This document shows positions 3,545 through 43,718 of a stretch of 45,251 nucleotides of DNA, in pieces; position 1 is the first letter of the stretch; every line of letters begins with the position of its first letter. Source of the DNA: Escherichia phage vB_EcoS-101114BS4. The DNA lies in the sequence record NC_073061.1. One strand, given 5' to 3'. A program made the translations under genes and the position numbers. The notes beneath the pieces were generated by a model. The model did not search any database and had not been told where the DNA came from. It was given only the letters and a program-made list of their open reading frames with translations.

Positions 3545-3628
3545 GTGCCTGTTATAATCCCCCTTAGATGGCTGGGCCGTCTCCTATGTTGCCGATGGTC
3601 GGCGCATATGCATAAAAGGGCTTATATC

Positions 3629-5575: not shown

Positions 5576-7096
5576 ATGACCGTTAACGTTGACAACCAGC
5601 ACCCACTCTATGCGCGCATCGCGCAGGAGTGGAAAATGATCCGGGATTGCGTAGCGGGGGAGCGCGCCGTGAAGGCGTGCGGCCCCTTGTACCTGCCACA
5701 TCCCGCCAGTGGCGATAATACCGACCCGAAAGCACGGGCGCGATATAAGGCATATAAGCAACGCGCTGTATTCCTGAACGCCACCGCACGCACGCTTAAT
5801 GCGCTGTTAGGCGTCGCCTTCGCTAAGCCGGTAAGTCTGGACCTTTCCGGGGCGATGGCTGACCTGATTGATGACGTAGACGGCAGCGGAATGCCACTGC
5901 CGCAACTCCTGCGCGGTGCTATGTCGGAAGTGCTGCAATCGGGCCGCGCGGGCTTTATGGTGGACTACGACCGCCAGGCTAACTTTGATGAACTGGGTAA
6001 CGTAGTGCCGCAGACCGCCGCCGAGATGGCGACGCACCGCCCGCTTATCCGCCTGTATACGGCAGAACAGATCATCAACTGGCGGCAGACCCACGGGATT
6101 GACACGCTAATCGTGCTGAAGGAAACGGACGAAATCAGCACCGAAGACCCGGACGACTTTGCAAACCACGAAGTAACGATCTGGACTGAATTGCGCATGA
6201 TTAACGGCGCGGCACACGCCCGCCGCTGGTTTTACAACGCAGACACGTCCGAGGTGCAGATGGACTTGCCGCGTGGCTTCACCCGCACCGAGCTTGTGCC
6301 GCTGGTGGATGCTGCCGGTCGAGCGCTTACTCAACTGCCATTTTGCTGGTGCGGTGCGGTGGACAACAACGCAACGCCTGACGCCGCGCCGCTGGCGGAT
6401 ATTGCATCCATCAACATTAAGCACTACAACGCTGAGGCGGACGTTGCCGAGATCGCGCACATCGTGGGCCAGCCTACCCTTGTCGCCACGGGCTTGACTC
6501 AATCATGGGCCGACAAAAACCTGAAGGGTGGGATTGCTCTCGGCGCGACTAAGGGCGTTATCCTGGGCCAGAACATGGACGCTAAACTGATTCAGGCCGA
6601 GGAGCGCAACTTGTCTGTTGCACTTTGTGAGCGCCGCGAATTGCAGATGGCTAAACTGGGCGCGGCCCTGGTTGAGAAGGGGACTGCACCAAAGACGGCA
6701 ACGGAAGCGGCATACGATGCGCAGACTGACAATAGTATCCTGTCGCTCATTGCCGGTAACGTTGAGAAGGCTTTCAACCGTGCGCTGCAAATCGTCCAGC
6801 TATTCACGGGTGATACCGCGGACCAGCGCGTGACGCTGAACAAGTTCTACACCGAAATCACGGTTGACGCGCAGCTTATGACCGCAATGATGGCTGGTGT
6901 TCAGACCGGTACGGTCCGACTGGCTGACTTCATCAAGTGGATGATGGCGCAGGGCGTTATCGATGACTCGCAAACCGTAGAGCAGGTGGAAGACGAATTG
7001 CGAAATCAGAATCCATTGCCTCAAATGTCCCCTGATGCGGTAGAATCTACCGAAGAAGACCCGGACAAGGTAGCGGACAATGGCGAGAACAATTAA
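5576..7096 (+). CDS. Portal protein
   Basis: 506-aa ORF directly after the large terminase, acidic C-terminal tail; assigned by size and synteny. Confidence 0.7.
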   Translation: MTVNVDNQHPLYARIAQEWKMIRDCVAGERAVKACGPLYLPHPASGDNTDPKARARYKAYKQRAVFLNATARTLNALLGVAFAKPVSLDLSGAMADLIDDVDGSGMPLPQLLRGAMSEVLQSGRAGFMVDYDRQANFDELGNVVPQTAAEMATHRPLIRLYTAEQIINWRQTHGIDTLIVLKETDEISTEDPDDFANHEVTIWTELRMINGAAHARRWFYNADTSEVQMDLPRGFTRTELVPLVDAAGRALTQLPFCWCGAVDNNATPDAAPLADIASINIKHYNAEADVAEIAHIVGQPTLVATGLTQSWADKNLKGGIALGATKGVILGQNMDAKLIQAEERNLSVALCERRELQMAKLGAALVEKGTAPKTATEAAYDAQTDNSILSLIAGNVEKAFNRALQIVQLFTGDTADQRVTLNKFYTEITVDAQLMTAMMAGVQTGTVRLADFIKWMMAQGVIDDSQTVEQVEDELRNQNPLPQMSPDAVESTEEDPDKVADNGENN

Positions 7097-8183
7097 TCAA
7101 CATATGGCGGATCGCATGATTCGCCGTCACATCTTCACCCAGCGCCTGAGCAATGACCAGGCGCGGCGGGTGTTGGCTATGTGGGAGAAGTTCCGGCCCA
7201 CGTTACTTGGCAAGCTGACCGAGTTACTTGATGGCAAAAAGTCCATGAATAACAAGGCACTGACCACACTGTTAACGCAAATCGACAAGACCGTCAAAAC
7301 GGAACTGCGCACCGAGTTTAAGGCGCTGGCTGAAAGCCTTCAGGAGTTTGCCGACACCGAGGCTGATTATCTTGCCGATACATTAACGGCAGCGATCCAG
7401 CCTGCGGTAGCCGTACCGGCTGTTGAGGTTGTTGGCGTAGTGACTGGCGCGCAGATTGCAGCCACGGCTATGAAAAACCCGTTCCAGGGAAACACCATGA
7501 TGCAATGGCCTGATTCACTTTCTGAGTGGACCAGGACGCAGATCGGGAATCAGGTGCGCGCTGGATTCATCCAGGGCAAGCCGACTATGGAAATTATCGC
7601 GGACGTAAAGCGCGCTCTCGGCGGTCGTAGCGCGCAAGCTATCTCAAGTGTTGTTAAGTCCGCAGTAAACCACTATGCGGCGACCGCCCGCGAGTTAATG
7701 GTGAAAGCTAATGACGATATTCTCGAAGGTCGCCAATGGTTGGCTACATTGGATACGCACACATCACCAATGTGCCAGCTACGCGATCGCCTGTTTTATC
7801 CTGTTGACGTCACTCCCGACACCAAAGGAAAGCGCGGCGGGAAAGTGGTGGCTGGATCACAATATGGCGCTGGTCCGGGCAAGCTACATTATTGCTGCCG
7901 TTCGACGGAGACGTGGAAAGTTAAAGGCATGGAAGATTGGCCCAGTGGTAAGCGTCCGGCACTGAAGGCTGACGCGGGTCGATTGCTGAGTGAGCAGGTC
8001 GACGCGCAGACTGATTTCTTCTCATGGGTGCAGCGCCAGCCGCGCCATATTCTGGAGGAATTATATGGGGTGCAGCGCGCAGACCAGATTATGCGCGGCG
8101 TGAAAGTGCCGAAGATGTTCACCGATACCGGCGAACTAATGACTATCGCACAGCTTAAAAACCGGGGGTTATGGCGTGATTAA
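7080..8183 (+). CDS. Head morphogenesis (minor head) protein
   Basis: 367-aa ORF overlapping the portal 3' end; position typical of F/gp7-like head morphogenesis proteins. Confidence 0.55.
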   Translation: MARTINQHMADRMIRRHIFTQRLSNDQARRVLAMWEKFRPTLLGKLTELLDGKKSMNNKALTTLLTQIDKTVKTELRTEFKALAESLQEFADTEADYLADTLTAAIQPAVAVPAVEVVGVVTGAQIAATAMKNPFQGNTMMQWPDSLSEWTRTQIGNQVRAGFIQGKPTMEIIADVKRALGGRSAQAISSVVKSAVNHYAATARELMVKANDDILEGRQWLATLDTHTSPMCQLRDRLFYPVDVTPDTKGKRGGKVVAGSQYGAGPGKLHYCCRSTETWKVKGMEDWPSGKRPALKADAGRLLSEQVDAQTDFFSWVQRQPRHILEELYGVQRADQIMRGVKVPKMFTDTGELMTIAQLKNRGLWRD

Positions 8184-8484: not shown

Positions 8485-8617
8485 ACCGCCTTGCACCTTT
8501 GAGAATGCATCGGCAGATCCAGACGAAGACTTGCTGGTTGATGTTAAAAATATGGAATGCGGGGCTAAGCTAAGGGCGCAAGTGCTGGAGTTGCAGAAAA
8601 TAATTCGGGGGCCGTGA
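8387..8617 (+). CDS. o-spanin (Rz1-like outer membrane lipoprotein)
   Basis: MLRVLTVLIVVLMLSACGSS signal peptide with lipobox LSAC; starts inside the i-spanin gene in another frame. Confidence 0.65.
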   Translation: MLRVLTVLIVVLMLSACGSSKAPSTPLTESVYRPPCTFENASADPDEDLLVDVKNMECGAKLRAQVLELQKIIRGP

Positions 8618-8630
8618 TGGCCCCTTTTTT
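8607..8630. terminator. Terminator, possibly bidirectional, between convergent genes
   Basis: gggggcc-gtgat-ggcccc hairpin followed by tttttt on + and by a T-rich tract on -. Confidence 0.7.
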
Positions 8631-8635
8631 GTTAA

Positions 8636-9205: not shown

Positions 9206-9970
9206 TTAGCGCGGAATACCGCAGATTTCGTTTAACGTCTTCACATCCAGCGCTACTGCCGTTGACTTCGGCTTGTCCGGGTATGGAATGAATTGTTCAA
9301 CTTCAGGCCACGCCGCGATCAGCTTCTTGTCAGTATTGTGCATATCCAGCACGCCGGTAACGGTTAGTTTGAACGCGTCATACTTCGCACGCAATTCACG
9401 GCGGGCCTTGTCGTTGTGGTCCAGGCGCTTGCAGAAATCATGCTCTGCCGGGTAGTCTACGCGACCGCGTGGTAGATATATCGGCAGCGCTTTTCCGTCC
9501 TCATCCACTTCACATACTGACGCGAGCATAATTTCCTCGTACCCCGGTACAATATCGCTAACGTCAGGCGCGAGCGTATTCATATATTTTTCTTCCCAGT
9601 ATCCGCGGTGCTGGCGGTAGCGGTATCCGTCGCCGCTCATATGCAGGGTACGGATGTTACCGCCTGCGTTGATTTCGAAAGTGGAGCAGTAAACGCGTCC
9701 AATGCCTTTCTGACGGTCTTTGTTATAGCTATACGTCGCCTCGTCGGTGTAAACGCTGACGCCGTACATCTGCGACTGGTTATCGCGGATTTCTGCGATA
9801 TATGCGCGTAGCTCGGCGAACGTGTGAATGCCTTCTGGCATACAGTCCAGCGTAATTGCGTACGCCAGGTCGCGAGAGGCCATCATGATTGATTTGGCTT
9901 CAGTCGCGATTTCGTGGTCGCGCAGGATGTTAGCCAGAATCTGGTTTTTAATGTCTTTTGTCAGTCTCAT
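9206..9970 (-). CDS. Hypothetical protein, co-transcribed with the DnaN-like gene
   Basis: 254-aa ORF starting MRLTKDIKNQ with GAGGA RBS; no motif recognised; antisense to the flanking structural genes. Confidence 0.6.
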   Translation of the reverse strand: MRLTKDIKNQILANILRDHEIATEAKSIMMASRDLAYAITLDCMPEGIHTFAELRAYIAEIRDNQSQMYGVSVYTDEATYSYNKDRQKGIGRVYCSTFEINAGGNIRTLHMSGDGYRYRQHRGYWEEKYMNTLAPDVSDIVPGYEEIMLASVCEVDEDGKALPIYLPRGRVDYPAEHDFCKRLDHNDKARRELRAKYDAFKLTVTGVLDMHNTDKKLIAAWPEVEQFIPYPDKPKSTAVALDVKTLNEICGIPR

Positions 9971-9990: not shown

Positions 9991-10017
9991 TGTGCAACCA
10001 ATATAGTGCAACCAATA
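9991..10017. promoter_or_regulatory. Divergent control region with two direct TGCAACCAAT motifs
   Basis: TGCAACCAAT at 9993-10002 and 10008-10017, between the minus-strand start at 9970 and the scaffold start at 10120. Confidence 0.5.
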
Positions 10018-14864: not shown

Positions 14865-14887
14865 GGGGCCAGCACGGCCCCTTTTTT
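14865..14887 (+). terminator. Rho-independent terminator
   Basis: ggggcc-agcac-ggcccc hairpin followed by tttttt. Confidence 0.7.
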
Positions 14888-14903
14888 ATTGGAGAATATT
14901 ACA

Positions 14904-15266: not shown

Positions 15267-15580
15267 TTGAGGCGGCGCGACGCTTTTATGGCCCGCCGCC
15301 ACCCTCCGAAGATGTAGCCGCAAGTTTATGGGGCGCGGCCCCCGAAGATGTTTGCCCGTCTGTTGCGCTATGGCCCGACAACGCGAAGATAGTCGCAGTC
15401 TTCACAGATTGCTCTACGCAATGGCGCACCGGATTCGGTGGGGCATACGGCATCGACTACGGAGTTCTGGAGTGGCTATTTAAGATGCACGGCATCGAAA
15501 ACGAGCAACGTGCATTTAAAGATATAAAGCTAATGGAACGGATCGCGCTTGACGAAATGGCGCAACAAAACCCCGCATAA
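14904..15580 (+). CDS. Tail assembly chaperone frameshift product (lambda GT-like), made by a -1 shift near 15257..15263
   Basis: The -1 frame stays open for about 105 codons after the slippery site (KKLIEAARRFYGPPPPSEDV...QQNPA) and stops at 15578-15580. Confidence 0.65.
15257..15263 (+). other. Programmed -1 ribosomal frameshift slippery heptamer A_AAA_AAC
   Basis: aaaaaac in X_XXY_YYZ register three codons before the chaperone stop; conserved G/GT architecture of tailed phages. Confidence 0.65.
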
Positions 15581-15583
15581 TGA

Positions 15584-15750
15584 AGCGGGACAAGCGGGAC
15601 GTCCCGATCTGTCCCGTTTTGCCCCGCCCCCTGTAAAACTGCATATCTACTCACTTTCATTGCATAAACTCAAAGCGGGACAAGCGGGACGTCCCGATCT
15701 GTCCCGCCCCCTAAATATGCATACCTATTCAGATTTCGTGCATAAAACAA
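15584..15750. repeat. Two tandem units of about 90 bp, each with GCGGGACAAGCGGGAC, the palindrome CGGGACGTCCCG and TGCATA motifs
   Basis: aagcgggacaagcgggacgtcccgatctgtcccg occurs at 15584 and 15674; palindromes at 15595-15606 and 15685-15696. Confidence 0.85.
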
Positions 15751-15907
15751 ACGGGACAGAAAGCGGGACAAACAAGGGGCGGGACAAAGCGGGACAGCAC
15801 CCCGTCCCCGTCAGTGCTGCCGCGGGTTTCAGCCGATCGGGACAGGCGGGACAACTCCCAGTCTTTCAGACTAGACGGGGGTCAATGGCCCCCCTCGTCT
15901 GAGACTG
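15750..15907. repeat. Copy A of a duplicated iteron-plus-hairpin element (copy B at 43319..43527)
   Basis: Four to six GCGGGACA direct repeats followed by the imperfect long hairpin cagtctttcagactagacgggggtcaatggcccccctcgtctgagactg (15859-15907). Confidence 0.85.
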
Positions 15908-15976
15908 AATAAGGTTTGTTTGAAATTCGCTGATACAATGTCAATCGGCAACTGCATAAAAAAAGGGGACTGCATA

Positions 15977-18622
15977 ATGGCAGATCAAGCAGCAGGCATC
16001 ACGCTAAAGGCGGATGTTGCACAAATCAGAACGGCGAATACGGTGCTGGACTCATTCGCGCAGAAGTCCGAAAACACCGAAAACAAGGTCAAGAAATTAA
16101 ACGACACCCTCGGCAACTCAAAAAAGGTGACGAGTGACGCCGCGGGCGGAATGGGGAAGCTGGCAACTGAATCGCAGCGGGCCGCCGATGGCATGACGAA
16201 GCAGGAGCGACTTGCCAACCGCTTAGGCATGTCGACCAAAAACCTGGGCTTCGCATCGCGTAACGCCGCATTTCAGTTACAAGATATCGCGGTCACGCTC
16301 GAGATGGGTATGCCGGTGCACCGCGTCATGATTCAGCAGCTACCGCAGTTAACCGGGGCATTCGGTGGACTGGGTAACACGCTGCGTTATGTTGCTGGCT
16401 TTCTCGGTCCGGTAGGGATCGGCCTTGCTGCGGTAACGGCAACGCTAGGCGTAGGCGTGGCTATTACGTCCCGCGCAGAAAACCAGGTAGCGGCGCTGAA
16501 TAAGACGCTGGCGCTATCCGGTAACATCTCGGGCCTCACCGCTAACCAGATCCTGGTGCTGTCGGAGAACGCCGAACGAATGGGCGGTTCATTCAGCAAG
16601 ACGCGTGACACAATTCAGGCGCTGGCGGCGGCAGGTGTGAAAGCGGGTGCTGACTTCGGCGCGCTGGCGAAAGTAGTGAACGACTTCGCGAAGGTGTCTA
16701 ATCAGCCGATCGCCGACGTGGTGGAGTCCATCTCCAAATTGTCCAACGACCCGGTGGGCGGCTTGCGCGCACTGGCGGACAAGTATCACGTCGTTACCGA
16801 GGCGCAGATCCAGCAGGTGCAGTCACTGGTTACGACGGGTCGCGAAACGGAAGCGGTTGCGCTGGCTAACAAAACCGCAGCGGCGTCGTTCACCAGCATG
16901 ACCAACGAGATCAAGTCCAACATGGGTACGCTTGAGCGGTCGATGAACGTCGTAACATCGGCAGCTAAATCTATGTGGGACGCCATCCTGGATGTGGGCC
17001 GCGCGCAGTCTTCGAATGAATCCGAGATGAAAGCGCGTGAATCATTGCAGCGCATGACCACGGCCTACTACGCTGAGATGAAAGCGGTCAACGCTGCCGG
17101 TGGGGTAATGACTGAGGCGCAGAAAGCACGAATTAACATGCTTTATAGCGAACTGGTTGCACAGGAAAAAGTAGTAGCGTCGCTTACCCTGCGCAACCGT
17201 GCGGAGCGTGACAACGCCAGCGCCGCGGACAAATCAGCGAAGGCGAACGAGGAGGCCAACCGCACCGCCCGCGACCGTGCCGCGTTCGAGAAGGAATTTG
17301 CCACCAACGCTAAGAAGCGCGCCGACGAGATCGCCCGCCTCAATTTGCTGAATAAGCGCGGTGTGATTAACGAGAAAGAACTGGCTGAGGCGGTGAAGCA
17401 GGTCAACGAGCGCTACAAAGACCCCGCACCGAAGAAGGCGGCAGCAATTCGCGTCGATGCCGGTGTTAAAATGCTGGAGGTCGCGCGGAGCGAACTGGCA
17501 CAGCTTAAGGAGTCCGGCAAGCAGATCGAGGCCAATGCCACAACGCAGACCCGCACGCAGCGCGCACAGGCCGCGTTGAATAAGCTGGTGGCGGATAATG
17601 AGCAGATGGTCGCAGCAAGCAAGGAGCGCACTCTAACGGCAGCAGAAAAGCAGCAAATGGCTGAGTTCGAGGCGGTTAAAGCGGTACGAGAGCAGATCGT
17701 CGAAGAAGCCAAATTGCTGGACGCGAAAGAGAAGCAGATCAAGGCACACGCCCAGGTCGAGGCATTCATCAAGAACCAGAATGCCGAGCTAAGGGCCACC
17801 GCTGCGGGCTATGCGCTTTCCACTCGCGAAGCGGCTAACCTGCGCGAAGAATTACAGCTAATTGACCGCCTTCAGCGTGTCGGGGCTAACGATACCGATA
17901 TCGACAACGCGGTGTCTAAACTGCGCGAAGTGCAGGAAGCACAGACCGGTGCTAACGCCTCGTTGTGGGATGGCTTCAGCCGCGGGCTTAAGGATAGCGT
18001 GGATGAAATGGGGAACGGCTACACGCAGATGACGTCACTCACAAAATTCACGTTCGGCGCTATGCAGGACACGATGAACGAGTTTTTCGAGACGGGCAAG
18101 CTGAACGCGAAGGATATGGTTAAGTCCATCCTGAGCGAGTTAATCAAGCTGGCTACCTCACAGGCGTTTAAGTCCATCGTTAGCGCTTTCGGTGGGGACG
18201 GCGGCAAAAACGGATTGTTCGGCGCTATCTTCTCTGGCCTTACTAAGAACGCGGACGGCGGAGCGTACGCAGGGGGCAATCTCGCGGCCTATTCGGGGCA
18301 AGTGGTAAGCCAGCCTACCTTTTTCAGTTATGGCGTTCAGGCGTTCGCTAAGGGCGCTGGATTGATGGGTGAGGCGGGGCCTGAGGCAATCATGCCACTG
18401 AAGCGCGGGCCGGATGGGAAACTGGGCGTTGCCGCTGCCGGTGCTGGTGGGGGTGGGATGATTGTAACAACCAACGTGAACATGGGTACCGGTAAGACGG
18501 ACACCAGTGTGAGCGGACCGGACCCACGCACCGCGCAGGCGTTCGGAAAGCAAATCACCGAGTCGGTCAAGGCCGAGATCGTGAAAGCGACGAAACCGGG
18601 TGGAGTACTTTACAAACGATGA
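15977..18622 (+). CDS. Tail tape measure protein
   Basis: About 880 aa, alpha-helical Ala/Gln/Glu-rich coiled-coil-like, Gly-rich C-terminal region; start chosen at ATG 15977 with AGGGGA RBS. Confidence 0.85.
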   Translation: MADQAAGITLKADVAQIRTANTVLDSFAQKSENTENKVKKLNDTLGNSKKVTSDAAGGMGKLATESQRAADGMTKQERLANRLGMSTKNLGFASRNAAFQLQDIAVTLEMGMPVHRVMIQQLPQLTGAFGGLGNTLRYVAGFLGPVGIGLAAVTATLGVGVAITSRAENQVAALNKTLALSGNISGLTANQILVLSENAERMGGSFSKTRDTIQALAAAGVKAGADFGALAKVVNDFAKVSNQPIADVVESISKLSNDPVGGLRALADKYHVVTEAQIQQVQSLVTTGRETEAVALANKTAAASFTSMTNEIKSNMGTLERSMNVVTSAAKSMWDAILDVGRAQSSNESEMKARESLQRMTTAYYAEMKAVNAAGGVMTEAQKARINMLYSELVAQEKVVASLTLRNRAERDNASAADKSAKANEEANRTARDRAAFEKEFATNAKKRADEIARLNLLNKRGVINEKELAEAVKQVNERYKDPAPKKAAAIRVDAGVKMLEVARSELAQLKESGKQIEANATTQTRTQRAQAALNKLVADNEQMVAASKERTLTAAEKQQMAEFEAVKAVREQIVEEAKLLDAKEKQIKAHAQVEAFIKNQNAELRATAAGYALSTREAANLREELQLIDRLQRVGANDTDIDNAVSKLREVQEAQTGANASLWDGFSRGLKDSVDEMGNGYTQMTSLTKFTFGAMQDTMNEFFETGKLNAKDMVKSILSELIKLATSQAFKSIVSAFGGDGGKNGLFGAIFSGLTKNADGGAYAGGNLAAYSGQVVSQPTFFSYGVQAFAKGAGLMGEAGPEAIMPLKRGPDGKLGVAAAGAGGGGMIVTTNVNMGTGKTDTSVSGPDPRTAQAFGKQITESVKAEIVKATKPGGVLYKR

Positions 18623-20045: not shown

Positions 20046-20786
20046 ATGTTAACGAAAAAGGTTAAGAGCGATATCGCCGCACACGTTGCGGCATGTCTGC
20101 CGGAAGAAGCGTGTGGCCTGGTTGTCATGGTGGGTCGTAAGCAAGTATTCATCCCGTGCCTGAACGTATTCGAAGACCCTACCGGCGCGCGCTCGCGTAA
20201 GGACGCGTTTACAATTAGTGATATGGCATGGATGGACGCCGAGGATATTGGTGACGTCGTGCGCGTAGTCCACTCACATCCAGGCCAGCGGGAGTTAACC
20301 CCGTCATTGGGCGACGTTAACGGATGCAACGGCAGCGGCATTGTGTGGACCATCGCCAATGAGTATGGCGACTTTATCGAGATCGACCCGGAAGACCCGC
20401 CGCTGGTAGGTCGCCGATTTGTTCTCGGAATTACGGATTGCTATGGCCTCGTCATGGACTGGCACAAAAAACAGGGCGTGATTCTGCCTGACTTCCGCGT
20501 GCCGTATAACTGGTGGGAAATGGGCGAAAGCCTGTACATGGATAACTGGTATGATGCGGGATTCAGGGAGTGCGAGGAGAATACACCGGGGGCAATGGTC
20601 ATCATGCAGATTAGCGCGCCAGTGCCTAACCATGCTGGGATCTTCCTTCCGGGCAACCAACTACTACACCATATCTACGGCAGCTTGTCGAGCGTGGTCC
20701 CCTTCCGGGCAGGATTTTTCCGCGACAATGTGGTTAAATGGGTGCGTCATAAAGACTTACCTGGGGATATTACAGAATGGCAATGA
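20046..20786 (+). CDS. Tail tip assembly protein K-like (MPN/JAMM plus NlpC/P60-like)
   Basis: VVRVVHSHPGQRELTPSLGD (JAMM-type HSHP motif) and a downstream Cys/His region; 246 aa; synteny. Confidence 0.75.
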   Translation: MLTKKVKSDIAAHVAACLPEEACGLVVMVGRKQVFIPCLNVFEDPTGARSRKDAFTISDMAWMDAEDIGDVVRVVHSHPGQRELTPSLGDVNGCNGSGIVWTIANEYGDFIEIDPEDPPLVGRRFVLGITDCYGLVMDWHKKQGVILPDFRVPYNWWEMGESLYMDNWYDAGFRECEENTPGAMVIMQISAPVPNHAGIFLPGNQLLHHIYGSLSSVVPFRAGFFRDNVVKWVRHKDLPGDITEWQ

Positions 20787-24844: not shown

Positions 24845-24866
24845 GGGGCCATCCGGCCCCTTTTTT
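24845..24866. terminator. Terminator (bidirectional) between convergent J-like and RBP-like genes
   Basis: ggggcc-atcc-ggcccc hairpin followed by tttttt; nearly identical sequence recurs at 27669..27690. Confidence 0.75.
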
Positions 24867-25830
24867 AATACATGTTAGGTATGACGAGTAACGGGGTTGG
24901 GACGGCTATGTTGCGGTTAGGCATCTGGAATTGCTGCCGTGAGTAGTTACCGATTACGCGATTACGCGCCGCACTAACCACGTTGCCCGCCATGCGTATC
25001 CCGTTCATTCGAACGTGGTTGTAGCCGCTGTTGTTCTCAATGAGCGCGCCGGTATATGAAAGCTGTACGAGGCTATTACCGATATTCTGACCGCCGGTGC
25101 CGATATTAATTACCGAATTGAGCACAAACGGCTTGTTAACGGTCGAGAACGTGACCTGCCCCTGGTTGTTCGTCATGGTGATACCAGTCCCCGGTGATGG
25201 AGGCGTATTGTTGAAGATAACCAGATCCAAGTCCACTTCGGCCCCGACGTCATCAATCCCGCCATAAGACGAATTGCGGACGATGATACTACTACCATCG
25301 AAGCCTACCGATACGTTGCCATTATCCCAGCGCGCGAACGGGATACCGCCCACAGGCAAAGGCATACTACCGTTCACGTGCACGCGCTGCGCGTAGCGGC
25401 AGGTCATTAACCGGGACACGTTGGAAATCGCGGTGAAGTCTGTCGAGTTCGCCACCAGTAAGCCCGCATTGCGTGACCCCACCGGCAGCACTTCCATAAT
25501 TATACCAGCCCATTGCGGGAGGCCGCTGTATGCGTTATGCGCGTCCGCGCCTCGAAGGATAATTCCACTATCCCCGTTGCGCTGTACCGACGTCACGTAG
25601 AACGGGTCGGGGAGAACCAGCGTCTGGTCGAACACCTCAAGCACTTCTACCGGGCGCGTGAGTGCAACGACAAGGTCCGACCCTGGTGTTAGCGGGGTAT
25701 TAATGGTCAGCGTCTTGTCGGACTGGCAGCGCTGATCAAACGTAGTGCAGTATGACGGAGCGCGCAAACCGGCAGTTATCTCCATAATCGGTCGTCCGTC
25801 GTTGTAGTCGATGAGTATTCCAGCGCCCAT
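24865..25830 (-). CDS. Putative receptor-binding protein (tail tip RBP)
   Basis: 321-aa Asn/Gly/Ser/Thr-rich protein antisense to and directly downstream of the J-like gene; start at MGAGILIDY with GGAG RBS; function inferred from position and composition only. Confidence 0.4.
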   Translation of the reverse strand: MGAGILIDYNDGRPIMEITAGLRAPSYCTTFDQRCQSDKTLTINTPLTPGSDLVVALTRPVEVLEVFDQTLVLPDPFYVTSVQRNGDSGIILRGADAHNAYSGLPQWAGIIMEVLPVGSRNAGLLVANSTDFTAISNVSRLMTCRYAQRVHVNGSMPLPVGGIPFARWDNGNVSVGFDGSSIIVRNSSYGGIDDVGAEVDLDLVIFNNTPPSPGTGITMTNNQGQVTFSTVNKPFVLNSVINIGTGGQNIGNSLVQLSYTGALIENNSGYNHVRMNGIRMAGNVVSAARNRVIGNYSRQQFQMPNRNIAVPTPLLVIPNMY

Positions 25831-26135: not shown

Positions 26136-27662
26136 ATGGCAGCGGGTACTATCTTATTAACCAATAACAGCCGGTCGGTAACGGGGACCGGTACGACGTT
26201 TTCGGCGTTCAAAGCCGGTGATTTCCTTTCTGTCGTAGTGGGGCAAGTCCCCTACACTATCGCGGTTGAATCTATCGAAAGCAACACCGGGCTTACTTTG
26301 GTGCTGCCGTTTGACGGCCCAACGGCATCCGGCCTCGCATGGGATGGCGTTGCGCGCGATACCATGTCGCTGGCAACGATGGGCGTAACAGTCCAGGCAC
26401 AGAAAGCACTGCGTATGCTTATTGCGGACGAGAACAACTGGCGTGCAATCTTCGGCGACGCTGAAGAAATCACAGTTACGTTACCGAACGGCACAGTGAT
26501 GCAGGGTATGTCGTGGGGCTACCTGTCGCAGCTAATGAAGCAGATCGACCCGGTGGAAATGCTCAACCTGCAACAACAAGCCGCCGCATCTGAGGTCGCA
26601 GCGAAAGGATACCGCGACGAGGCCGAAGGCTTCAAGAACGATACTAATACCATCAAGACGCAAACCAACCAGATTAAGACTGATACGCAGGCGATCCACG
26701 ACGCCACCAATACGATCAAGACGCAAACCGACCAGATTAAGACCGATACGCAGGCCATCAAGGACCAGACCAACCAGATTAAGACTGACACTGGCGTTAT
26801 TCGAGATCAGGCCAACACGGCGAAGACTGACGCACAAGCGGCCCGAGATGCAGCGCAGGGATACCGCGACGAAGCCGAAGGCTTCAAAAACTCAATCGAC
26901 CCCACTAAGTTCATGCAGAAGTCGCAGAACCTGGCGGACGTTGCCGACAAGTACGCCGCGCGCAACATTCTGGGGGTGGGCGATGACAGTATCGTTAAAC
27001 ACGCAACATTACGCCTGAACGGTGGCGAATCATTAACATTCAATGAAGTGGAGGCTAACGGCTTAATTCTATCAAACGCCTCGATGGGAATCGACAATTG
27101 GGTAGGCTTCACCATGCATAAATGGTACGCCGACTGGACACGCGCAGGAATTGTGCGTGCGGGTGACACCCACGTGTCAGACTACCGCATCCACGTGTGG
27201 AAGAATGGGGCTACTGAGGCGCTATTCCGCTTCCTGCCGGACGGGCGTCTGATTCAGGGTAACAGCGGCAACCCATCGTCGGCGGAGTTTCAGAAAGCAC
27301 CGCTATCAGACCGGGACGTGAAGAAAGAAATCCAATACACGGACGGCGCGGAAAGTTACAACCGAGTACGGCAATGGCTACCAGCAATGTTTAAGTATAA
27401 GGAGTCGGACGTACAGCGTTACGGCCTTATCGCGCAGGACCTGGCCATGATTGACCCGGAATATGTGCACTTGCTGCCAGGACACGGAATCTACGAGGAC
27501 GTTGTTGTTGGCGTGGACGAGGAAGGGAACGAGATTGTCGAGCAAAAGGAGATCGGATACACCGACGATGTGCTGTCGCTTGACAGTAACGTGCTGTTGA
27601 TGGATCTATGCGCCGCCTTCGTTCACCTGTTGCAGAAAGTAGAAAAGCTGGAAGGTAAGTAA
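26136..27662 (+). CDS. Lateral tail fibre with C-terminal intramolecular chaperone-like domain
   Basis: 508 aa; shaft repeats (TNTIKTQTNQIKTDTQAI); C-terminal segment with SDRDVKKEIQYTD...YGLIAQDL resembles the autoproteolytic chaperone domain of phage fibres and endosialidases. Confidence 0.65.
   Translation: MAAGTILLTNNSRSVTGTGTTFSAFKAGDFLSVVVGQVPYTIAVESIESNTGLTLVLPFDGPTASGLAWDGVARDTMSLATMGVTVQAQKALRMLIADENNWRAIFGDAEEITVTLPNGTVMQGMSWGYLSQLMKQIDPVEMLNLQQQAAASEVAAKGYRDEAEGFKNDTNTIKTQTNQIKTDTQAIHDATNTIKTQTDQIKTDTQAIKDQTNQIKTDTGVIRDQANTAKTDAQAARDAAQGYRDEAEGFKNSIDPTKFMQKSQNLADVADKYAARNILGVGDDSIVKHATLRLNGGESLTFNEVEANGLILSNASMGIDNWVGFTMHKWYADWTRAGIVRAGDTHVSDYRIHVWKNGATEALFRFLPDGRLIQGNSGNPSSAEFQKAPLSDRDVKKEIQYTDGAESYNRVRQWLPAMFKYKESDVQRYGLIAQDLAMIDPEYVHLLPGHGIYEDVVVGVDEEGNEIVEQKEIGYTDDVLSLDSNVLLMDLCAAFVHLLQKVEKLEGK
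26608..26892 (+). repeat. In-frame tandem repeats inside the fibre gene
   Basis: 63-bp unit (accatcaagacgcaaaccaaccagattaagactgatacgcaggcg...) repeated about 2.6 times, flanked by two copies of ggataccgcgacga(g/a)gccgaaggcttcaa. Confidence 0.8.
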
Positions 27663-27668
27663 TGAGAA

Positions 27669-27690
27669 GGGGCCATACGGCCCCTTTTTT
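27669..27690. terminator. Terminator (bidirectional) between the fibre gene and the end of the leftward operon
   Basis: ggggcc-atac-ggcccc hairpin followed by tttttt. Confidence 0.75.
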
Positions 27691-28950: not shown

Positions 28951-28972
28951 TGCAACCAACCTATTGGTTGCA
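28951..28972. promoter_or_regulatory. Perfect palindrome TGCAACCAA-CCTA-TTGGTTGCA (candidate operator)
   Basis: 9-bp inverted arms with a 4-bp spacer, overlapping the stop codon of the HAD gene and 50 bp upstream of the next start. Confidence 0.6.
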
Positions 28973-30623: not shown

Positions 30624-30648
30624 GCAACCAATCTAATTACGCAACCAA
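30624..30648. promoter_or_regulatory. Pair of direct GCAACCAAT motifs
   Basis: GCAACCAA at 30624 and 30641 (17-bp spacing) between the stop of gene 30650..30973 and the internal terminator. Confidence 0.5.
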
Positions 30649-30649
30649 T

Positions 30650-40633: not shown

Positions 40634-40963
40634 ATGCATATCAACGACGCTATCGAAATGTTAACTAAGACCGTAAGCGGTGAGACAAGCCGGTCCTGGG
40701 CTTATACCGATGCCGTTGGTGCGGCGTTATTTGAAATCGAACGCCTGCGCAGTGTCGAAAAAGAATTGCGCGCCAAGCTGGAATTACTCAACGGTACGGC
40801 AGCAAGCAAGCTGCAAAAACACAATGAAGAAATGGAAGAATACAAAAAGCAGGTTATCCGTTTACGCGACGAGGGCAAGTCCTGGGCGATGATTGCCGAG
40901 TTGACCGGAATTAATCAGAGCACCGTGCGCTCCTGGGTACGCAATAATAAAACTTCTAAGTAA
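40634..40963 (+). CDS. Putative transcriptional regulator with C-terminal HTH
   Basis: 109 aa; C-terminal SWAMIAELTGINQSTVRSWVRN is HTH-like; first gene of the rightward unit. Confidence 0.5.
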   Translation: MHINDAIEMLTKTVSGETSRSWAYTDAVGAALFEIERLRSVEKELRAKLELLNGTAASKLQKHNEEMEEYKKQVIRLRDEGKSWAMIAELTGINQSTVRSWVRNNKTSK

Positions 40964-40973: not shown

Positions 40974-43238
40974 ATGAGCTTAATTAAATTCGCAGTAACA
41001 AGACCCGCTAAAAAAGGCGAAAAAGCCAGGGCGGAAAACTTCGAGATGACCACTGATGAGTTTTTCGAATTTATCAATGATGCGAAAGAAATCTCCTCGG
41101 TGCACATCAACAAGACTGAAGATAAAGCCGAGTATGCGCGCCGCAAGCGTAAGGCCGATGGCATCGTGGCCTATACCAATGATGGGTTACGCCGCAAGAC
41201 CAGTGCGGTCGACCGCTCGATCCTGTTCTTCGATATTGACCGCACCGACACCCGCACATTACGCCGCTGCCGTAAAGCGTTCACCGACGCTGGTCTGGAG
41301 CATGTATTCCACACCACGACCGGCGACCGTCACCCACTGAAAGGCGGCACACGTTGCGCCCGTTTCCTGGTGCTCACTGACAAGCCTGTACCGGCTGAAG
41401 ACCTGGGCCGCGTCCAGTATGCGCTATTAGACCAACTGGGCCTGTCAGATGTGGACTTCGACGATTGTACGAAAGACACCAACCGCCTTATGTACCTGCC
41501 TCACCAGCAGTCTGTCATAAAGTGCCACTACGGAAAGCGCGCCCGTGTCCGTCGTCTGCTTCGCCTGGCTGACAAGCTGGGAGTGGAGAAAGAGGAAGTG
41601 CGCCGCGAACTGACCCAGGGCGCCGATGGCGTGGCGGACGGCATTCTGGATTGGTGCTTCCAGGCTGGCTTTGAACCACTGTCATCCGGTCGCGGTTATG
41701 AAGTGCCTTGCCCGAACGAGCACCTGCATAGCGGCGGCGGGTCGACGGCTATCATGGTTAAGGATGGCGAGATCCGTTTCAAGTGTATGCACACCGGCAA
41801 CGAATGCTGTTCCGAACTGAATAAACACCAGCACCTGGCGCTGCGTCTGATCGGCATCCCGGACCACTTGAACGTTGAACCGCACAACATGTCACGCAAG
41901 CAAATCGCCGCCATCCTTCCGGGACTGGACGACGAGGAAGTGGAATCATGCTATGAACATATTGTTGATGCGGTCGGCGACGGCGACGAGTACGGCGAAT
42001 GCACCGACGCTGACCTGGACAACGAACCTGTTGCACTATTCAGTAAGCACGACCCGATCATCGAAGGCCTGGTCAACTTCAAATCGACCTGGTATCTTGC
42101 CGGTGAGTCGAACATTGGTAAGTCGTTCTACGTGCTGGGCCAGATGGCGTCCGTATCTGCCGGTATTCCGTTTGGTGGCGCGAAGGTCGTCCAGTCGCAT
42201 TGCTTCTATTTCGACGCGGAAGGTGGCGAAGCCTCCAACCAGCGTAAGGAAGCACTGCAGATTAAATACGAGCACGACCTCGACAAGCTGCACATTATCG
42301 ACCTGCAATCACGCGGCTGGGATATTACCAGCAAGTCAGGCTTGCGCGAGGTTATCAGCTTTATCAACCGCACCGCTAACGGGGAGCCGGTTGGCCTGGT
42401 GGCCTTCGACTCACTCAACCAGACTGTAGCGCTGCGGTCCGCTGATGCCAAACCGTTCGACGAGAACAACGCCAGCGATATGGGCGAAGTGGTCAAGGCG
42501 CTGAAGGCCATTGCGGAAAATACAGGCGGCAGTGCGGGCGTCATCCATCACCCGGCTAAGGGTGCAAACGGCAGCAGATCCCCACGCGGGTCCGGCGCGC
42601 TTCATGGTGCTGTCGATTCTGCGTTCTTCCTGGAACAGCCGGACGATAATCAGCCAGGCCAACTCAACCTGTATCACGAAAAATCCCGTAACGGCATCAA
42701 GCAAGCGCCGCGTGGCTTCGTCCTGCTCAAATGCAAGGTGAAGGTGGATCTCCGTAAGTCCGAGGCGTTCGAAGCCCACCAGTCCACCAGCACCGGTCCG
42801 GACTTCGGCGATGTGGTTGCCGGTTGGGACGTCAAGCCAATTGCATCCACGCCACGCGACGAGACTCTCTACCTCGTACCGGTCGCCCTGGCACCGTTCG
42901 CTGTCGAACAGGCTAAGGCCGCAGGCAAGGCCGCAGTTAAGGAAGAGAACACCGCCGGACCGCGCAACGAAAAAGAGAAGGTGCTTTATGCGGCACTGGA
43001 AAAACTGATGGAAGATAACCCGGACCATACTGGATTCAGTAAATCGGCAATTGTCCGCCAGGCTGGACTCGCGAAAGGCGGAACATCGACGAAGGCAATC
43101 GACGATATGGTGGAGCGCGGCGTGCTCGGTTTTTATACAGATCCACACACCGGGGCCATCTATGGGTCGTCGAATCTGGTCATCAAATCGGATATCCCAA
43201 TCACGCTTTCGGCGACCGATGATGACCTGAAAGATTAA
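40974..43238 (+). CDS. Primase-helicase (primase/polymerase N-domain, zinc-binding region, P-loop helicase)
   Basis: 754 aa; ILFFDIDRTD, cysteine-rich CPNEHLH...FKCMHTGNECC, Walker A GESNIGKS, Walker B-like LVAFDSL. Confidence 0.7.
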   Translation: MSLIKFAVTRPAKKGEKARAENFEMTTDEFFEFINDAKEISSVHINKTEDKAEYARRKRKADGIVAYTNDGLRRKTSAVDRSILFFDIDRTDTRTLRRCRKAFTDAGLEHVFHTTTGDRHPLKGGTRCARFLVLTDKPVPAEDLGRVQYALLDQLGLSDVDFDDCTKDTNRLMYLPHQQSVIKCHYGKRARVRRLLRLADKLGVEKEEVRRELTQGADGVADGILDWCFQAGFEPLSSGRGYEVPCPNEHLHSGGGSTAIMVKDGEIRFKCMHTGNECCSELNKHQHLALRLIGIPDHLNVEPHNMSRKQIAAILPGLDDEEVESCYEHIVDAVGDGDEYGECTDADLDNEPVALFSKHDPIIEGLVNFKSTWYLAGESNIGKSFYVLGQMASVSAGIPFGGAKVVQSHCFYFDAEGGEASNQRKEALQIKYEHDLDKLHIIDLQSRGWDITSKSGLREVISFINRTANGEPVGLVAFDSLNQTVALRSADAKPFDENNASDMGEVVKALKAIAENTGGSAGVIHHPAKGANGSRSPRGSGALHGAVDSAFFLEQPDDNQPGQLNLYHEKSRNGIKQAPRGFVLLKCKVKVDLRKSEAFEAHQSTSTGPDFGDVVAGWDVKPIASTPRDETLYLVPVALAPFAVEQAKAAGKAAVKEENTAGPRNEKEKVLYAALEKLMEDNPDHTGFSKSAIVRQAGLAKGGTSTKAIDDMVERGVLGFYTDPHTGAIYGSSNLVIKSDIPITLSATDDDLKD

Positions 43239-43318
43239 TTTTTGCGCGCATTGGTTGCCAAATTGAGTGTTTTTAGCTGGTCGCATTGGTTGCCGTGTAG
43301 TGTAAATATAGTGAATAG

Positions 43319-43527
43319 TTATGCAGTTTTATTGCATAAAGTAAGCGGGACAAAAAGCGGGACAGACAGGGGGCGGGACAAAGCGGGACAGCACCCCTGT
43401 CCCGCCCCGGATGGCGCGGCTTGCAGGGGGGCGGGACAGGCGGGACAAACCCCAGTCTTTCAGACTAGACGGGGGTCAGTTGGCCCCCCTCGTCTGAGAC
43501 TGCATAAAATCCGGGATTGCATAATGT
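43319..43527. repeat. Copy B of the duplicated iteron-plus-hairpin element, flanked by inverted TGCATAA motifs
   Basis: Six GCGGGACA repeats (43345-43450), hairpin cagtctttcagactagacgggggtcagttggcccccctcgtctgagactg (43453-43502), ttatgcag at the left and ctgcataa at the right edge. Confidence 0.85.
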
Positions 43528-43718
43528 ACGGCAGCATGATGTGAATTGCTGTCGTCGACGAACTAGGCAACCAATGCGAGTTGCAAAATGGAGAGTGAAA
43601 AATGCAGTTTGCAGTTACAGCGGATAGGGATCGGCTTTTTCATACGCATGATTAATATTGGTTGCAATCAGCCTGGCACCTTGCTAGATTGGTTGCTCAC
43701 CAACATGAGGACTGAACA

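What the first reader, a model, noticed from the sequence alone, without database searches (positions are those of the whole stretch)
15750..15979. Duplicated iteron-plus-hairpin element at two loci 27 kb apart
A block of GCGGGACA direct repeats followed by a long imperfect hairpin (cagtctttcagactagacggggg...cccccctcgtctgagactg) and TGCATAA motifs occurs at 15750..15979 and again at 43319..43527. The two copies are near-identical over the iteron core and hairpin stem but differ in the hairpin loop (tcaatgg versus tcagttgg), which suggests selection on structure. In copy A the element ends at the tape measure start (gggactgcataATG); in copy B the equivalent ATG opens only a 6-codon ORF. Copy A occupies a gap of about 400 bp between the chaperone frameshift ORF and the tape measure gene, where these genes are normally adjacent. 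Clustered iterons at two loci recall the ori and cis-replication-region pair of satellite phage P4, which is bound by its primase-helicase; this genome encodes a comparable primase-helicase.
Basis: partly seen in the sequence, partly recalled or inferred. Interest (0 to 1): 0.8.

Follow-up and report, generated by a model that had tools for sequence, protein, structure and literature searches.

The report
Co-evolving iteron-hairpin element, probable phage origin
An E. coli phage (genus Dhillonvirus) carries the same block of short protein-binding repeats plus a DNA hairpin at two places, one just after its primase-helicase gene and one before its tape-measure gene; this is most likely its so far unmapped replication origin and a second, origin-like site.

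Summary
The window is a complete Dhillonvirus genome. It carries one module at 15718-15912 (A) and 43312-43507 (B): GCGGGACA repeats plus a 49-50 nt hairpin. GCGGGACA occurs 16 times against 1.9 expected. The pair was already annotated, without a function, as 'region A/region B' in Sodalis phage SO-1 (GenBank, 2009). It is present in all ~155 Dhillonviruses found.

New result: related phages keep the same architecture, but every repeat is switched together to another word (GTGTGGCA, GTGTGCCA, GGGAT(A/C), TTCCGCACA). In each genome where both loci were recovered, they carry the same word. So the repeats are binding sites for a phage-encoded, sequence-specific DNA-binding protein.

B always starts at the stop codon of the primase-helicase gene. 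The C-terminus of that protein models as a winged helix. This matches the design of SaPI, P4 and pRN1 origins, and the second late-region copy recalls SPP1 oriR and P4 crr.

It is not a P4 family member, because the helicase is AAA_25 rather than SF3. The binding protein and origin function are inferred, not shown. A transcription-control role is the main rival. The B mini-ORF is not conserved.

The parts
15578..15976 (+). Region A as a whole: the non-coding gap between the tail-chaperone stop codon and the tape-measure ATG
   Evidence: annotated as repeat_region 'region A' in SO-1
15583..15616 (.). Module A1: iteron palindrome GCGGGACaaGCGGGAC|GTCCCGatctGTCCCG, followed by TTTT. Annotated as a putative terminator in phage WF5505.
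   Evidence: D17, 100% identical to A2
15673..15706 (.). Module A2: second copy of the same iteron palindrome, 90 bp downstream of A1
   Evidence: D17
15712..15750 (.). AT-rich tract with TGCATA/TGCATAA motifs, upstream of the main iteron array of A
15751..15797 (+). A, left iteron set: four direct (G)CGGGACA repeats with cores at 15752, 15764, 15780 and 15790, followed by a degenerate inverted copy GTCCCC at 15804
15837..15854 (+). A, right iteron set: two direct repeats, 9 bp apart
   Evidence: two alleles with 9 or 8 bp spacing occur at both loci across genomes
15859..15907 (+). A hairpin: CAGTCT / TTCAGACT / AGAC / G5-loop-C6 / GTCT / GAGACTG
15931..15952 (+). Extended -10 promoter-like TGaTACAAT plus a CGGCAAC box. 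Unique to A and not part of the A/B repeat. Conserved upstream of the tape-measure gene in the T1, T2 and T3 lineages.
   Evidence: read from the sequence; the strict sigma-70 scan found nothing
43239..43718 (+). Region B as a whole: the non-coding stretch from the primase-helicase stop codon to the next gene
   Evidence: 'region B' in SO-1
43247..43294 (+). Two direct CGCATTGGTTGCC motifs. These belong to a different motif class found at many promoters in the genome. An inverted third copy lies at 43566-43578.
43301..43344 (.). AT-rich tract (77% A+T by hand count) with TTATGCAG / TGCATAAA
   Evidence: conserved block in the T1', T2 and T4 lineages
43345..43405 (.). B, left iteron set: four direct GCGGGACA repeats (43345, 43357, 43373, 43383) and one inverted copy (43398-43405)
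43431..43447 (+). B, right iteron set: two direct repeats
43453..43502 (+). B hairpin: same arms as the A hairpin, loop TCAGTTGG
43524..43544 (+). 6-codon ORF (MYGSMM*). Its ATG is not conserved, so it is judged not real.
40974..43238 (+). Primase-helicase gene (754 aa; AAA_25 at residues 357-531; PHROG 'replicative helicase-primase'). It is the candidate iteron-binding initiator. The winged-helix-like C-terminus is roughly residues 665-745 (nt 42966-43208).
40634..40963 (+). Small HTH protein (109 aa, sigma-70 region-4-like) just upstream of the primase-helicase gene. Its recognition helix is invariant across iteron types, so it is not the iteron-specific binder.

Best explanation
The GCGGGACA repeats are binding sites (iterons) for one phage-encoded, sequence-specific DNA-binding protein that recognises both loci.

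Region B starts at the stop codon of the primase-helicase gene and is most likely the phage replication origin. In this model the primase-helicase binds the two iteron sets through its C-terminal winged-helix domain and assembles there. It melts neighbouring DNA: the AT-rich tract, or the adjacent inverted repeat, which can extrude as a stem-loop. It then loads itself and primes. This is the design of the SaPI Rep, P4 alpha and pRN1 ORF904 origins.

Region A, in the tail operon, is a second binding locus for the same protein. It may be a second origin, a cis enhancer like P4 crr, or a fork barrier like the one proposed for SPP1 oriR.

Shown here: the repeats are real, conserved, and switch together at both loci. 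B is always next to the primase-helicase gene. The hairpin is conserved with a few compensatory changes. The C-terminus has a winged-helix-like fold.

Inferred, not shown: which protein binds the iterons, that replication starts here, and what A does.
For: 1. Concerted specificity switch. Phages whose primase-helicase is 66-69% identical to the window's keep the same order of blocks but replace every GCGGGACA:
   - GTGTGGCA in L391 and L390.
   - GTGTGCCA in L392, and a GGTGCCA variant in L394.
   - GGGAT(A/C) in a 46%-identity lineage, L398/L399.
   - TTCCGCACA in Serratia phage Tsm2.
   The region upstream of the tape-measure gene carries the same word as region B in the same contig or the same sample (L395/L390, L396/L391, L397/L392, L399/L398, L264/L389). 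None of the other words appears.
2. Position. B begins 0-10 nt after the primase-helicase stop codon in the window and in all seven other lineages examined.
3. The small HTH protein encoded upstream is excluded as the specific binder. Its recognition helix STVRSWVRN is the same in types T1-T4.
4. The primase-helicase C-terminus models as helix-helix-helix-strand-strand (pLDDT 81-87 in the core). Its best PDB matches are all winged-helix DNA binders, including MarR-family proteins, histone H1 and ORC winged-helix domains. Positions 691, 704 and 733 in it are invariant in 18 T1 sequences and differ in every T2-T4 sequence.
5. Strong purifying selection. In a phage with only 66% identity in the C-terminal 299 aa of the protein, the element is the only stretch that megablast still matches to GenBank Dhillonviruses. 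It is present in 157 GenBank phage records.
6. The distance from the element to the nearest promoter-like site varies by about 27 nt between lineages, which argues against a fixed activator geometry.
7. Precedents:
   - SaPI origins have 6-12 short iterons immediately downstream of rep, in two sets, bound by a C-terminal winged-helix domain; pri and rep are fused in SaPI5 (PMC9371898).
   - The pRN1 origin is a stem-loop downstream of a primase-helicase-winged-helix gene that has a small repressor gene upstream (PMC4234260).
   - SPP1 has oriL plus a late-region oriR bound by the same protein (PMC6316719).
Against: - There is no experimental evidence of origin firing or protein binding, and no paper on this element was found.
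- Winged-helix co-variation with iteron type is weak. There are 20 T1-specific columns against 6-16 in control groupings. The putative recognition helix is nearly the same in a T1 phage (P0011) and a T4 phage (P0014).
- Foldseek E-values are all above 1e-3.
- In the window itself the spacer between the two iteron sets is GC-rich, not AT-rich.
- GC skew simply follows gene orientation. Its minimum is near 40.5 kb, not at B, and there is no inflection at A.
- Both copies are co-oriented with the flanking genes and sit at gene boundaries. A lies 25-90 nt upstream of a conserved extended -10 promoter-like site. This also fits a transcriptional role.
- Three T:G changes in the outer stem are tolerated only on the + strand, which is the mRNA sense.
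Confidence: 0.5

Rival explanations
1. Transcription-control cassette. The repeats bind a phage-specific regulator (a late activator, repressor or antiterminator) that controls two transcription units. The hairpin acts in the + strand RNA as a leader, processing, stabiliser or insulator element.
For: - Both copies are co-oriented with + strand genes and sit at gene boundaries.
- A is followed by a conserved TGnTACAAT extended -10 site 35-40 nt before the tape-measure ATG in T1, T2 and T3 phages.
- Module A1 looks like a terminator.
- Three T:G wobble changes in the outer stem are compatible only with + strand pairing.
- Regulator/site pairs also switch specificity in concert in other phages (established knowledge of lambdoid repressors, N/nut and Q/qut).
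- Kagunavirus and Jerseyvirus relatives carry a promoter-plus-structured-leader element at the position of Tsm2's second locus.
Against: - No sigma-70-type promoter is found in the shared element.
- The hairpin has no U-run, so it is not an intrinsic terminator.
- There are 7 to 15 sites per locus, which is unusual for a promoter regulator.
- The distance from element to promoter varies by about 27 nt between lineages.
- B is followed by about 150 nt of unrelated sequence and then by its own promoter of the early ATTGGTTGC class.
- The only DNA-binding protein adjacent in all lineages that varies in sequence is the primase-helicase.
- There is no Rfam match.
- BLAST shows no similarity to the Kagunavirus leader element.
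Confidence: 0.27
2. Packaging signals. The repeats would be binding arrays for the small terminase subunit, like the hexamer arrays of P1 pac or the SPP1 pacL/pacR boxes.
For: - Short repeats in two sets around a central region resemble P1 pac (recalled from memory, not checked here).
- Terminase specificity is also lineage-specific.
Against: - There are two distant copies per genome, and neither is near the terminase genes at 3530-5565.
- The element tracks the primase-helicase gene, not terS, in all lineages.
- Co-variation with terS could not be tested, because the T2-T4 contigs lack it.
Confidence: 0.05
3. A selfish or neutral repeat: a miniature mobile element or recombination hot spot with no function for the phage.
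For: - B is bracketed by inverted CGCATTGGTTGCC motifs.
- Alleles are exchanged between A and B.
- The second copy sits at different places in Dhillonvirus and Tsm2.
Against: - The element is universal in the genus.
- It is more conserved than the flanking coding DNA.
- All sites switch in concert with the surrounding architecture preserved.
- The hairpin word was found only in Dhillonvirus-sized contigs in IMG/VR, and the metagenome hits that carry the full hairpin all have the Dhillonvirus-type sequence.
Confidence: 0.04

Closest known systems
SaPI (staphylococcal pathogenicity island) origin with self-loading Rep / Pri-Rep helicase
   Same: - 6-12 short iterons lie immediately downstream of the helicase ORF, in two sets with copies in both orientations.
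- They are recognised by a C-terminal winged-helix domain.
- Iterons and protein are element-specific.
- Primase and helicase are fused in SaPI5 (PMC9371898).
- Here: 7 cores directly after the primase-helicase stop codon, in two sets, with one inverted copy, a winged-helix-like C-terminus, and lineage-specific words.
   Different: - The helicase here is an AAA_25 RecA-type ATPase, a different family from SaPI Rep, which that paper compares with SF3 and SF6 helicases.
- The repeats are 7-9 nt rather than 5-6 nt.
- The central spacer is GC-rich in the window, although it is AT-rich (GATTTATAAGGAG) in the T2-T6 lineages.
- A conserved hairpin adjoins the iterons.
- There is a second full copy 27.6 kb away.
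Satellite phage P4 ori + crr, bound by alpha protein
   Same: - Octamer repeats occur at two loci, one of them built from tandem longer repeats. That detail, and binding of both loci by alpha, are recalled from memory.
- The initiator is a single polypeptide with primase, helicase and a C-terminal winged helix (PMC2777425).
   Different: - Alpha has a DnaG-type primase and an SF3 helicase. Here the helicase is AAA_25, and no similarity to alpha was found in PDB sequence searches.
- The spacing is 27.6 kb against about 4.5 kb in P4 (from memory).
- There is a hairpin module here.
Bacillus phage SPP1 oriL / oriR with origin-binding protein gp38
   Same: - It is a virulent siphovirus of about 44 kb with two repeat-plus-AT-rich loci bound by one protein.
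- One locus is at the initiator gene. The other lies in the late structural region, next to moron genes.
- The second site is proposed to stall forks and trigger the theta-to-sigma switch (PMC6316719, PMC3485210).
- In several lineages here, A is likewise accompanied by a minus-strand moron.
   Different: - SPP1 uses a separate origin binder, a loader and a DnaB-type helicase.
- oriL lies inside gene 38.
- No hairpin module is described.
pRN1 ORF904 stem-loop origin (with similar arrangements in some phages, e.g. BIP-1)
   Same: - The operon is a small DNA-binding repressor gene followed by a primase-helicase-winged-helix gene.
- An essential stem-loop of about 100 nt lies downstream of the gene. 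Its structure is conserved while its sequence is not (PMC4234260).
- Here: a small HTH gene, then the primase-helicase gene, then a conserved stem-loop downstream.
   Different: - pRN1 has an SF3 helicase, and no iterons were found there.
- Here the hairpin is shorter (49 nt) and its sequence is nearly invariant.
RSF1010 oriV (iterons plus ssiA/ssiB hairpins; RepA helicase, RepB' primase, RepC)
   Same: - Iterons lie next to hairpins that a plasmid primase recognises on single-stranded DNA (recalled from memory).
- RSF1010 RepA is the top, but not significant, PDB sequence hit of the helicase domain (E = 0.5).
   Different: - RSF1010 has three separate proteins, 20-bp iterons, and two hairpins on opposite strands at one locus.
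- No significant similarity was shown here.

Membership tests
P4 ori/crr - alpha system | The initiator is alpha-like: a DnaG-type primase plus an SF3 (D5/P4-type) helicase | tested here: not met
   Pfam finds only AAA_25 (RecA-type) at residues 357-531. PDB sequence searches find no alpha or SF3 hit. The N-terminal 339 aa match no Pfam family.
P4 ori/crr - alpha system | C-terminal winged-helix origin-binding domain | tested here: inconclusive
   The AF2 model with a 38-sequence alignment has a core pLDDT of 81-87 and helix-helix-helix-strand-strand topology. All top Foldseek PDB hits are winged-helix DNA binders, but the best E-value is 8e-3 and P4 1ka8 is not among the top 50.
P4 ori/crr - alpha system | The same short repeats at two separate loci | tested here: met
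P4 ori/crr - alpha system | Both loci are bound by the initiator and required in cis for replication | not testable with these tools
   Needs EMSA or footprinting and deletion genetics.
SaPI-type origin of a self-loading helicase | The iteron array lies immediately downstream of the helicase ORF | tested here: met
   In the window, region B begins at 43239, directly after the stop codon (43236-43238), and the first iteron is at 43345. The arrangement is the same in the seven other lineages examined, including Tsm2.
SaPI-type origin of a self-loading helicase | Two iteron sets flank an AT-rich centre, with copies in opposite orientations | tested here: inconclusive
   Two sets and inverted copies are present. 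The centre is AT-rich (GATTTATAAGGAG...) in the T2, T3, T4 and T6 lineages and in the A copy of contig 050407. It is GC-rich in the window, where the AT-rich tract lies upstream of the array instead.
SaPI-type origin of a self-loading helicase | Iteron word and initiator specificity domain vary together | tested here: inconclusive
   Iteron switching is clear. In the protein, only three winged-helix positions (691, 704, 733) track the type across 18 T1 and 4 non-T1 sequences. Control groupings give similar totals.
SPP1 oriL/oriR | Two repeat-plus-AT-rich loci, one at the initiator gene and one in the late region | tested here: met
   SPP1 description
SPP1 oriL/oriR | A separate origin-binding protein plus a loader plus a DnaB-type helicase | not tested
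   No gp38/gp39 homologue was searched for. The replication module seen here is PolA, DUF2800 nuclease, Enc34-type SSB, SNF2 helicase and primase-helicase.
Intrinsic (Rho-independent) terminator | A GC-rich hairpin directly followed by a U-run | tested here: not met
   The main hairpins are followed by AATAAGG and CATAAAA, and the scan does not call them. Only the A1 palindrome has a TTTT tail.
Any described RNA family (Rfam 15) | A match at or near the gathering score | tested here: not met
   There are no matches at the gathering threshold. At E up to 10 there are only chance miRNA-like hairpin hits.
Sigma-70 promoter within the shared element | -35 and -10 hexamers at 16-18 bp spacing | tested here: not met
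   The scan finds 0 sites in either region. An extended -10 (TGaTACAAT) exists only in the A-specific part at 15931-15939 (read from the sequence).

The most novel reading that the evidence does not exclude
The two loci form one bipartite replication-control device. In this reading the primase-helicase bound at B fires the origin. The same protein bound at A, inside the tail operon, acts as a programmed fork trap or second origin that times the switch from circle-to-circle replication to concatemer synthesis. The conserved stem-loop is the loading or priming site on the displaced + strand. The at least four or five iteron 'dialects' would then be replicon-specificity groups that stop co-infecting relatives from using each other's initiator.
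Probability: 0.15. Interest if true: 0.7.

Novelty: new variant of a known kind. Interest (0 to 1): 0.5.

Why it matters
Dhillonviruses are common, easily grown E. coli phages. Several are in the BASEL collection. No paper describing their origin of replication turned up in the literature searches.

This analysis gives a concrete candidate for the origin at single-nucleotide resolution. It also provides a natural panel of at least four or five iteron 'dialects' in otherwise collinear phages. That panel is close to a ready-made swap experiment for finding the specificity determinants of a primase-helicase family (AAA_25 with a C-terminal winged helix) whose origin recognition has not been studied.

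If A proves to be a fork barrier or second origin, it would extend the SPP1 oriR idea to Gram-negative siphophages.

There are practical uses too. Cloned iteron arrays might be used to interfere with these phages by titrating the initiator, and the origin would be useful for engineering them.

Tried and rejected
- tRNA, tmRNA and Rfam searches found nothing.
- The strict sigma-70 and terminator scans found nothing in the shared element.
- Six literature searches and several papers on Dhillonvirus, HK578, SSL-2009a and SO-1 make no mention of these repeats or of an origin. The SO-1 GenBank note is cut off after 'possible ...', so its authors' guess could not be read.
- The IMG/VR scan with GCGGGACN{1,6}GCGGGAC was too unspecific: it gave 120 mostly chance hits and wasted a scan.
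- The metagenome scan with the 5' hairpin arm returned mostly chance hits, plus only Dhillonvirus-type hairpins.
- I first thought that the Dhillonvirus element, the Tsm2 loci and the promoter-plus-leader element of Kagunavirus, Jerseyvirus and EcoPhCCP1 were homologous, on the basis of short shared words (TTATGC, CATTCGGAA, ACGGCAGC). BLAST gives no significant similarity between them, so I do not claim homology.
- Single-sequence AF2 of the C-terminal domain was useless (pLDDT 37).
- A homologue search with the C-terminal fragment alone found one protein.
- GC skew is uninformative because it follows gene orientation.
- I considered a CsrA-sponge RNA, a G-quadruplex, a Rho rut site on the minus strand, and iterons acting as -35-like hexamers, all from the sequence alone. 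I dropped them because inverted copies and the concerted word switching point to double-stranded DNA recognition by a phage protein.
- The small HTH protein was rejected as the iteron binder because its recognition helix is invariant across iteron types.


Full report
**What the window is.** The 45,251-nt window is a complete phage genome with a 127-nt assembly overlap (1-127 = 45125-45251). Its DNA and proteins place it in the genus Dhillonvirus (HK578 / SSL-2009a / Sodalis SO-1-like E. coli siphophages). Region A matches 157 phage records at 80-99% identity. Structural genes run on the + strand from about 3.5 to 27.7 kb. A replication module lies on the - strand from 27.7 to 40.4 kb: family A polymerase, DUF2800 nuclease, Enc34-type SSB and SNF2 helicase. 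A + strand block from 40.6 kb holds a small HTH protein and a 754-aa primase-helicase.

**Check of the observation.**
- GCGGGACA occurs 16 times against 1.94 expected, and 14 of these lie in the two loci.
- The shared module is 82% identical over about 205 nt.
- The hairpins at 15859-15907 and 43453-43502 differ only in the loop. As RNA they fold at about -28 kcal/mol, z = -3.8 and -5.1, and the minus strand folds nearly as well.
- Region A is larger than reported. Two 90-bp tandem modules upstream (15583-15616 and 15673-15706) each carry a palindrome of four repeats.
- The 6-codon ORF in B is not conserved in other genomes.

**Not a first sighting.** GenBank GQ502199 (Sodalis phage SO-1) annotates exactly these two stretches as repeat_region 'region A' and 'region B'. 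Phage 'rolling' has a repeat_region there, and phage WF5505 a predicted terminator. I found no paper that analyses them.

**Conservation within the genus.**
- In 15 A copies and 17 B copies from IMG/VR, the hairpin arms and bulges are invariant, while the loop changes in sequence and length.
- The hairpin word occurs only in contigs of about 44 kb of this phage type, usually twice per contig.
- Two alleles of the last iteron pair (9-bp or 8-bp spacing) occur at both A and B in different genomes. This shows exchange between the loci.

**The key result: iterons switch as a set, at both loci.** A search with the primase-helicase found graded relatives, and I fetched their contigs.
- A lineage with 68% identity (L389, L393, and IMG contig 050407) keeps GCGGGACA at B and at A (L264).
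- Two others at 68-69% (L391, L390) keep the same order of blocks: ATTGGTTGCC x2; TATGCAGTTGCCGTGAATAAATAA; four to five repeats including inverted ones; a spacer; two repeats; the hairpin CAGTCTTTCAGACTAGACGGGG...; then GAATAGAAATTCGCATA. Every repeat, however, reads GTGTGGCA.
- L392 has GTGTGCCA, and L394 a GGTGCCA variant.
- A 46%-identity lineage has GGGAT(A/C).
- Serratia phage Tsm2 has TTCCGCACA, at 9590-9649 just after its primase-helicase gene and at 20382-20411 in its structural region.
- Upstream of the tape-measure gene, the same phages carry their own word. L395 is the same contig as L390, and that 27,589-bp contig starts inside A and ends inside B. L396 comes from the same sample as L391, and L397 from the same sample as L392. 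L399 is the same contig as L398.
- The count table is clean: each phage has one word at both loci and none of the others.

Concerted replacement of 7-15 sites at two loci, with the surrounding architecture kept, is the signature of a DNA-binding protein and its sites evolving together. It rules out an RNA-motif or chance origin for the repeats.

**Who binds?**
- The small HTH protein encoded just upstream of the primase-helicase has the same recognition helix (STVRSWVRN) in types T1-T4, so it cannot set iteron specificity. It is a better match for the ATTGGTTGC(C) motif, which is conserved in those lineages and sits at many promoter-like sites. In the T6 lineage both this motif and the small-protein family change.
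- The primase-helicase is the only variable DNA-metabolism protein adjacent to B in every lineage.
- With a 38-sequence alignment its last ~130 residues model as helix-helix-helix-strand-strand (core pLDDT 81-87). All top Foldseek PDB matches are winged-helix DNA binders, including MarR-family proteins, histone H1 and ORC winged-helix domains, though none has E <= 1e-3.
- Positions 691, 704 and 733 in that domain are invariant in 18 T1 proteins (down to 66% identity) and different in all T2-T4 proteins. Control groupings give comparable totals, however, and the putative recognition helix is nearly the same in one T1 and one T4 protein. Binder identity therefore remains an inference.

**The hairpin.** I found 28 distinct variants. 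The best-supported register has four parts:
- an outer stem, CAGTCT:AGACTG;
- an 8-nt 5' internal loop, which can alternatively form the mini-palindrome AGTCT-TTC-AGACT;
- an inner stem, AGAC:GTCT;
- a G5-6/C5-6 stem with a 5-8 nt loop.

Variation is scarce. There is one compensatory A:T to G:C change (L264), one G:C to T:A change in the G/C stem (L391), three T:G pairs, and three A:G mismatches at the terminal pair. In the T3 phage the B hairpin is rebuilt (CAGTCTaagAGACTG plus GGGAG...CTCCC) while its A hairpin stays Dhillonvirus-like. So a stem-loop is selected, but much of its sequence is also fixed. This suggests recognition of both shape and sequence. The strand, and whether the structure forms in DNA or RNA, cannot be decided.

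**Origin or transcription?**

For an origin:
- the array anatomy;
- the fixed position at the 3' end of the initiator-like gene;
- lineage-specific words;
- the element being the only DNA still recognisable by megablast in a phage with 66% identity in the C-terminal part of the protein;
- a variable distance to the nearest promoter-like site;
- the precedents below.

For transcription:
- co-orientation with the genes;
- a conserved extended -10 site (TGaTACAAT, 15931-15939) between A and the tape-measure gene;
- a terminator-like A1 palindrome;
- wobble changes allowed only on the + strand.

Against transcription:
- there is no promoter in the shared part;
- there is no U-run after the hairpin;
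- B is followed by about 150 nt and its own early-class promoter.

GC skew only mirrors gene orientation. I put the origin model at about 0.5 and the transcription model at about 0.27. The two are not exclusive.

**Comparison with known systems.**
- SaPI origins are the closest design. They have 6-12 short iterons immediately downstream of rep, in two sets with both orientations. The iterons are read by a C-terminal winged helix and are element-specific, and primase and helicase are fused in SaPI5 (PMC9371898).
- pRN1 offers the stem-loop-downstream-of-the-gene parallel, together with a small repressor gene upstream (PMC4234260).
- SPP1 offers the two-locus parallel, with oriR in the late region next to morons and a proposed fork-stalling role (PMC6316719, PMC3485210).
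[quoted passage not shown] The helicase here is AAA_25, so this is not a member of that family, although it may work like it.

**Verdict.** The feature is real and conserved. It was already noticed as a repeat but never explained. The new finding is that its repeats are co-evolving protein-binding sites shared by both loci. The most likely reading is an iteron-plus-stem-loop origin served by the adjacent primase-helicase, with a second origin-like site in the tail operon. That would be a new variant of a known kind of system. Function remains to be shown.

Noticed in passing
window 1748-1779, 9994-10016, 26110, 28952-28971, 30624-30649, 33570-33590, 40432, 43250-43696, 44243: The motif ATTGGTTGC has 15 exact copies (26 with up to 1 mismatch, against 12.7 expected). 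They lie mostly in intergenic regions, often in pairs, and overlap promoter-like TTGCAA-N17-TAnnnT sites. This is probably the early/middle promoter-operator class. It is conserved in the T1-T4 lineages and replaced by GCTGCCAAC in the T6 lineage, where the small upstream HTH family also changes. That makes the small HTH protein (40634-40963) a candidate binder.
   Followed up: partly
L243 (K1ind2) 4395-4620; L030 (EcoPhCCP1) 7012-7156 and 38980-39121: Kagunavirus and Jerseyvirus phages carry a highly conserved, unannotated element (90-100% identity in 179 of 181 records). It consists of a sigma-70-like promoter (T(T/C)GACT-N17-TAAGCT with TGn) followed by a structured leader of about 125 nt with a variable apex. 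It lies upstream of the spanin, scaffold and capsid genes. 43 places beyond one per record were found (224 places in 181 records); in EcoPhCCP1 the second copy lies near the primase-helicase operon. It has no Rfam match and shows no BLAST similarity to the Dhillonvirus element.
   Followed up: partly
L391 6700-6725, L392 2885-2905, L394 5033-5052, L398 4992-5010, L264 5635-5655: A conserved box (T)GATTTATAAGGAG sits between the two iteron sets in the T2, T3, T4 and T6 lineages and in the A copy of contig 050407. The window has a GC-rich spacer there instead. The box could be an unwinding element, a -10-like TATAAG, or a host-factor site.
   Followed up: no
window 8608-8633, 14865-14890, 24845-24867, 27669-27694: A family of near-identical strong intrinsic terminators (GGGGCC-loop-GGCCCCTTTTTT) lies on the + strand inside and at the ends of the structural operon. 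One follows the major tail protein gene, about 700 nt upstream of region A.
   Followed up: no
window 15946-15952, 43530-43536; L389 12511-12550; L029 9896-9904 and 20548-20556: CGGCA(A/G)C boxes recur 20-50 nt downstream of the hairpin in Dhillonvirus A and B, in the intermediate lineages, and in Tsm2 (AACGGCAGC). Each is preceded by a -10-like hexamer. The box resembles half of the inverted ATTGGTTGCC motif.
   Followed up: no
L264 4968-5345; L396 2467-2640; L397 2471-2644: In several relatives a small minus-strand gene (a moron) with its own ATTGGTTGC-type promoter is inserted between the tail chaperone gene and region A. The window lacks it.
   Followed up: no
window 36575-36806 and 39765-40104: Minus-strand genes 36553-37362 (Enc34-type SSB) and 39710-40408 (unknown function, PHROG 3127) contain long acidic Asp/Glu-rich repeats. 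On the + strand these appear as GAAGACGACGA-type DNA repeats.
   Followed up: no
window 26638-26805: There are three tandem 63-nt repeats (42-63 nt spacing, 70-86% identical) inside the 508-aa tail-fibre-like gene at 26136-27662.
   Followed up: no
window 74-83 and 45198-45207: The perfect palindrome TTATGCATAA, two overlapping TGCATAA motifs, lies inside the 127-nt terminal overlap.
   Followed up: no
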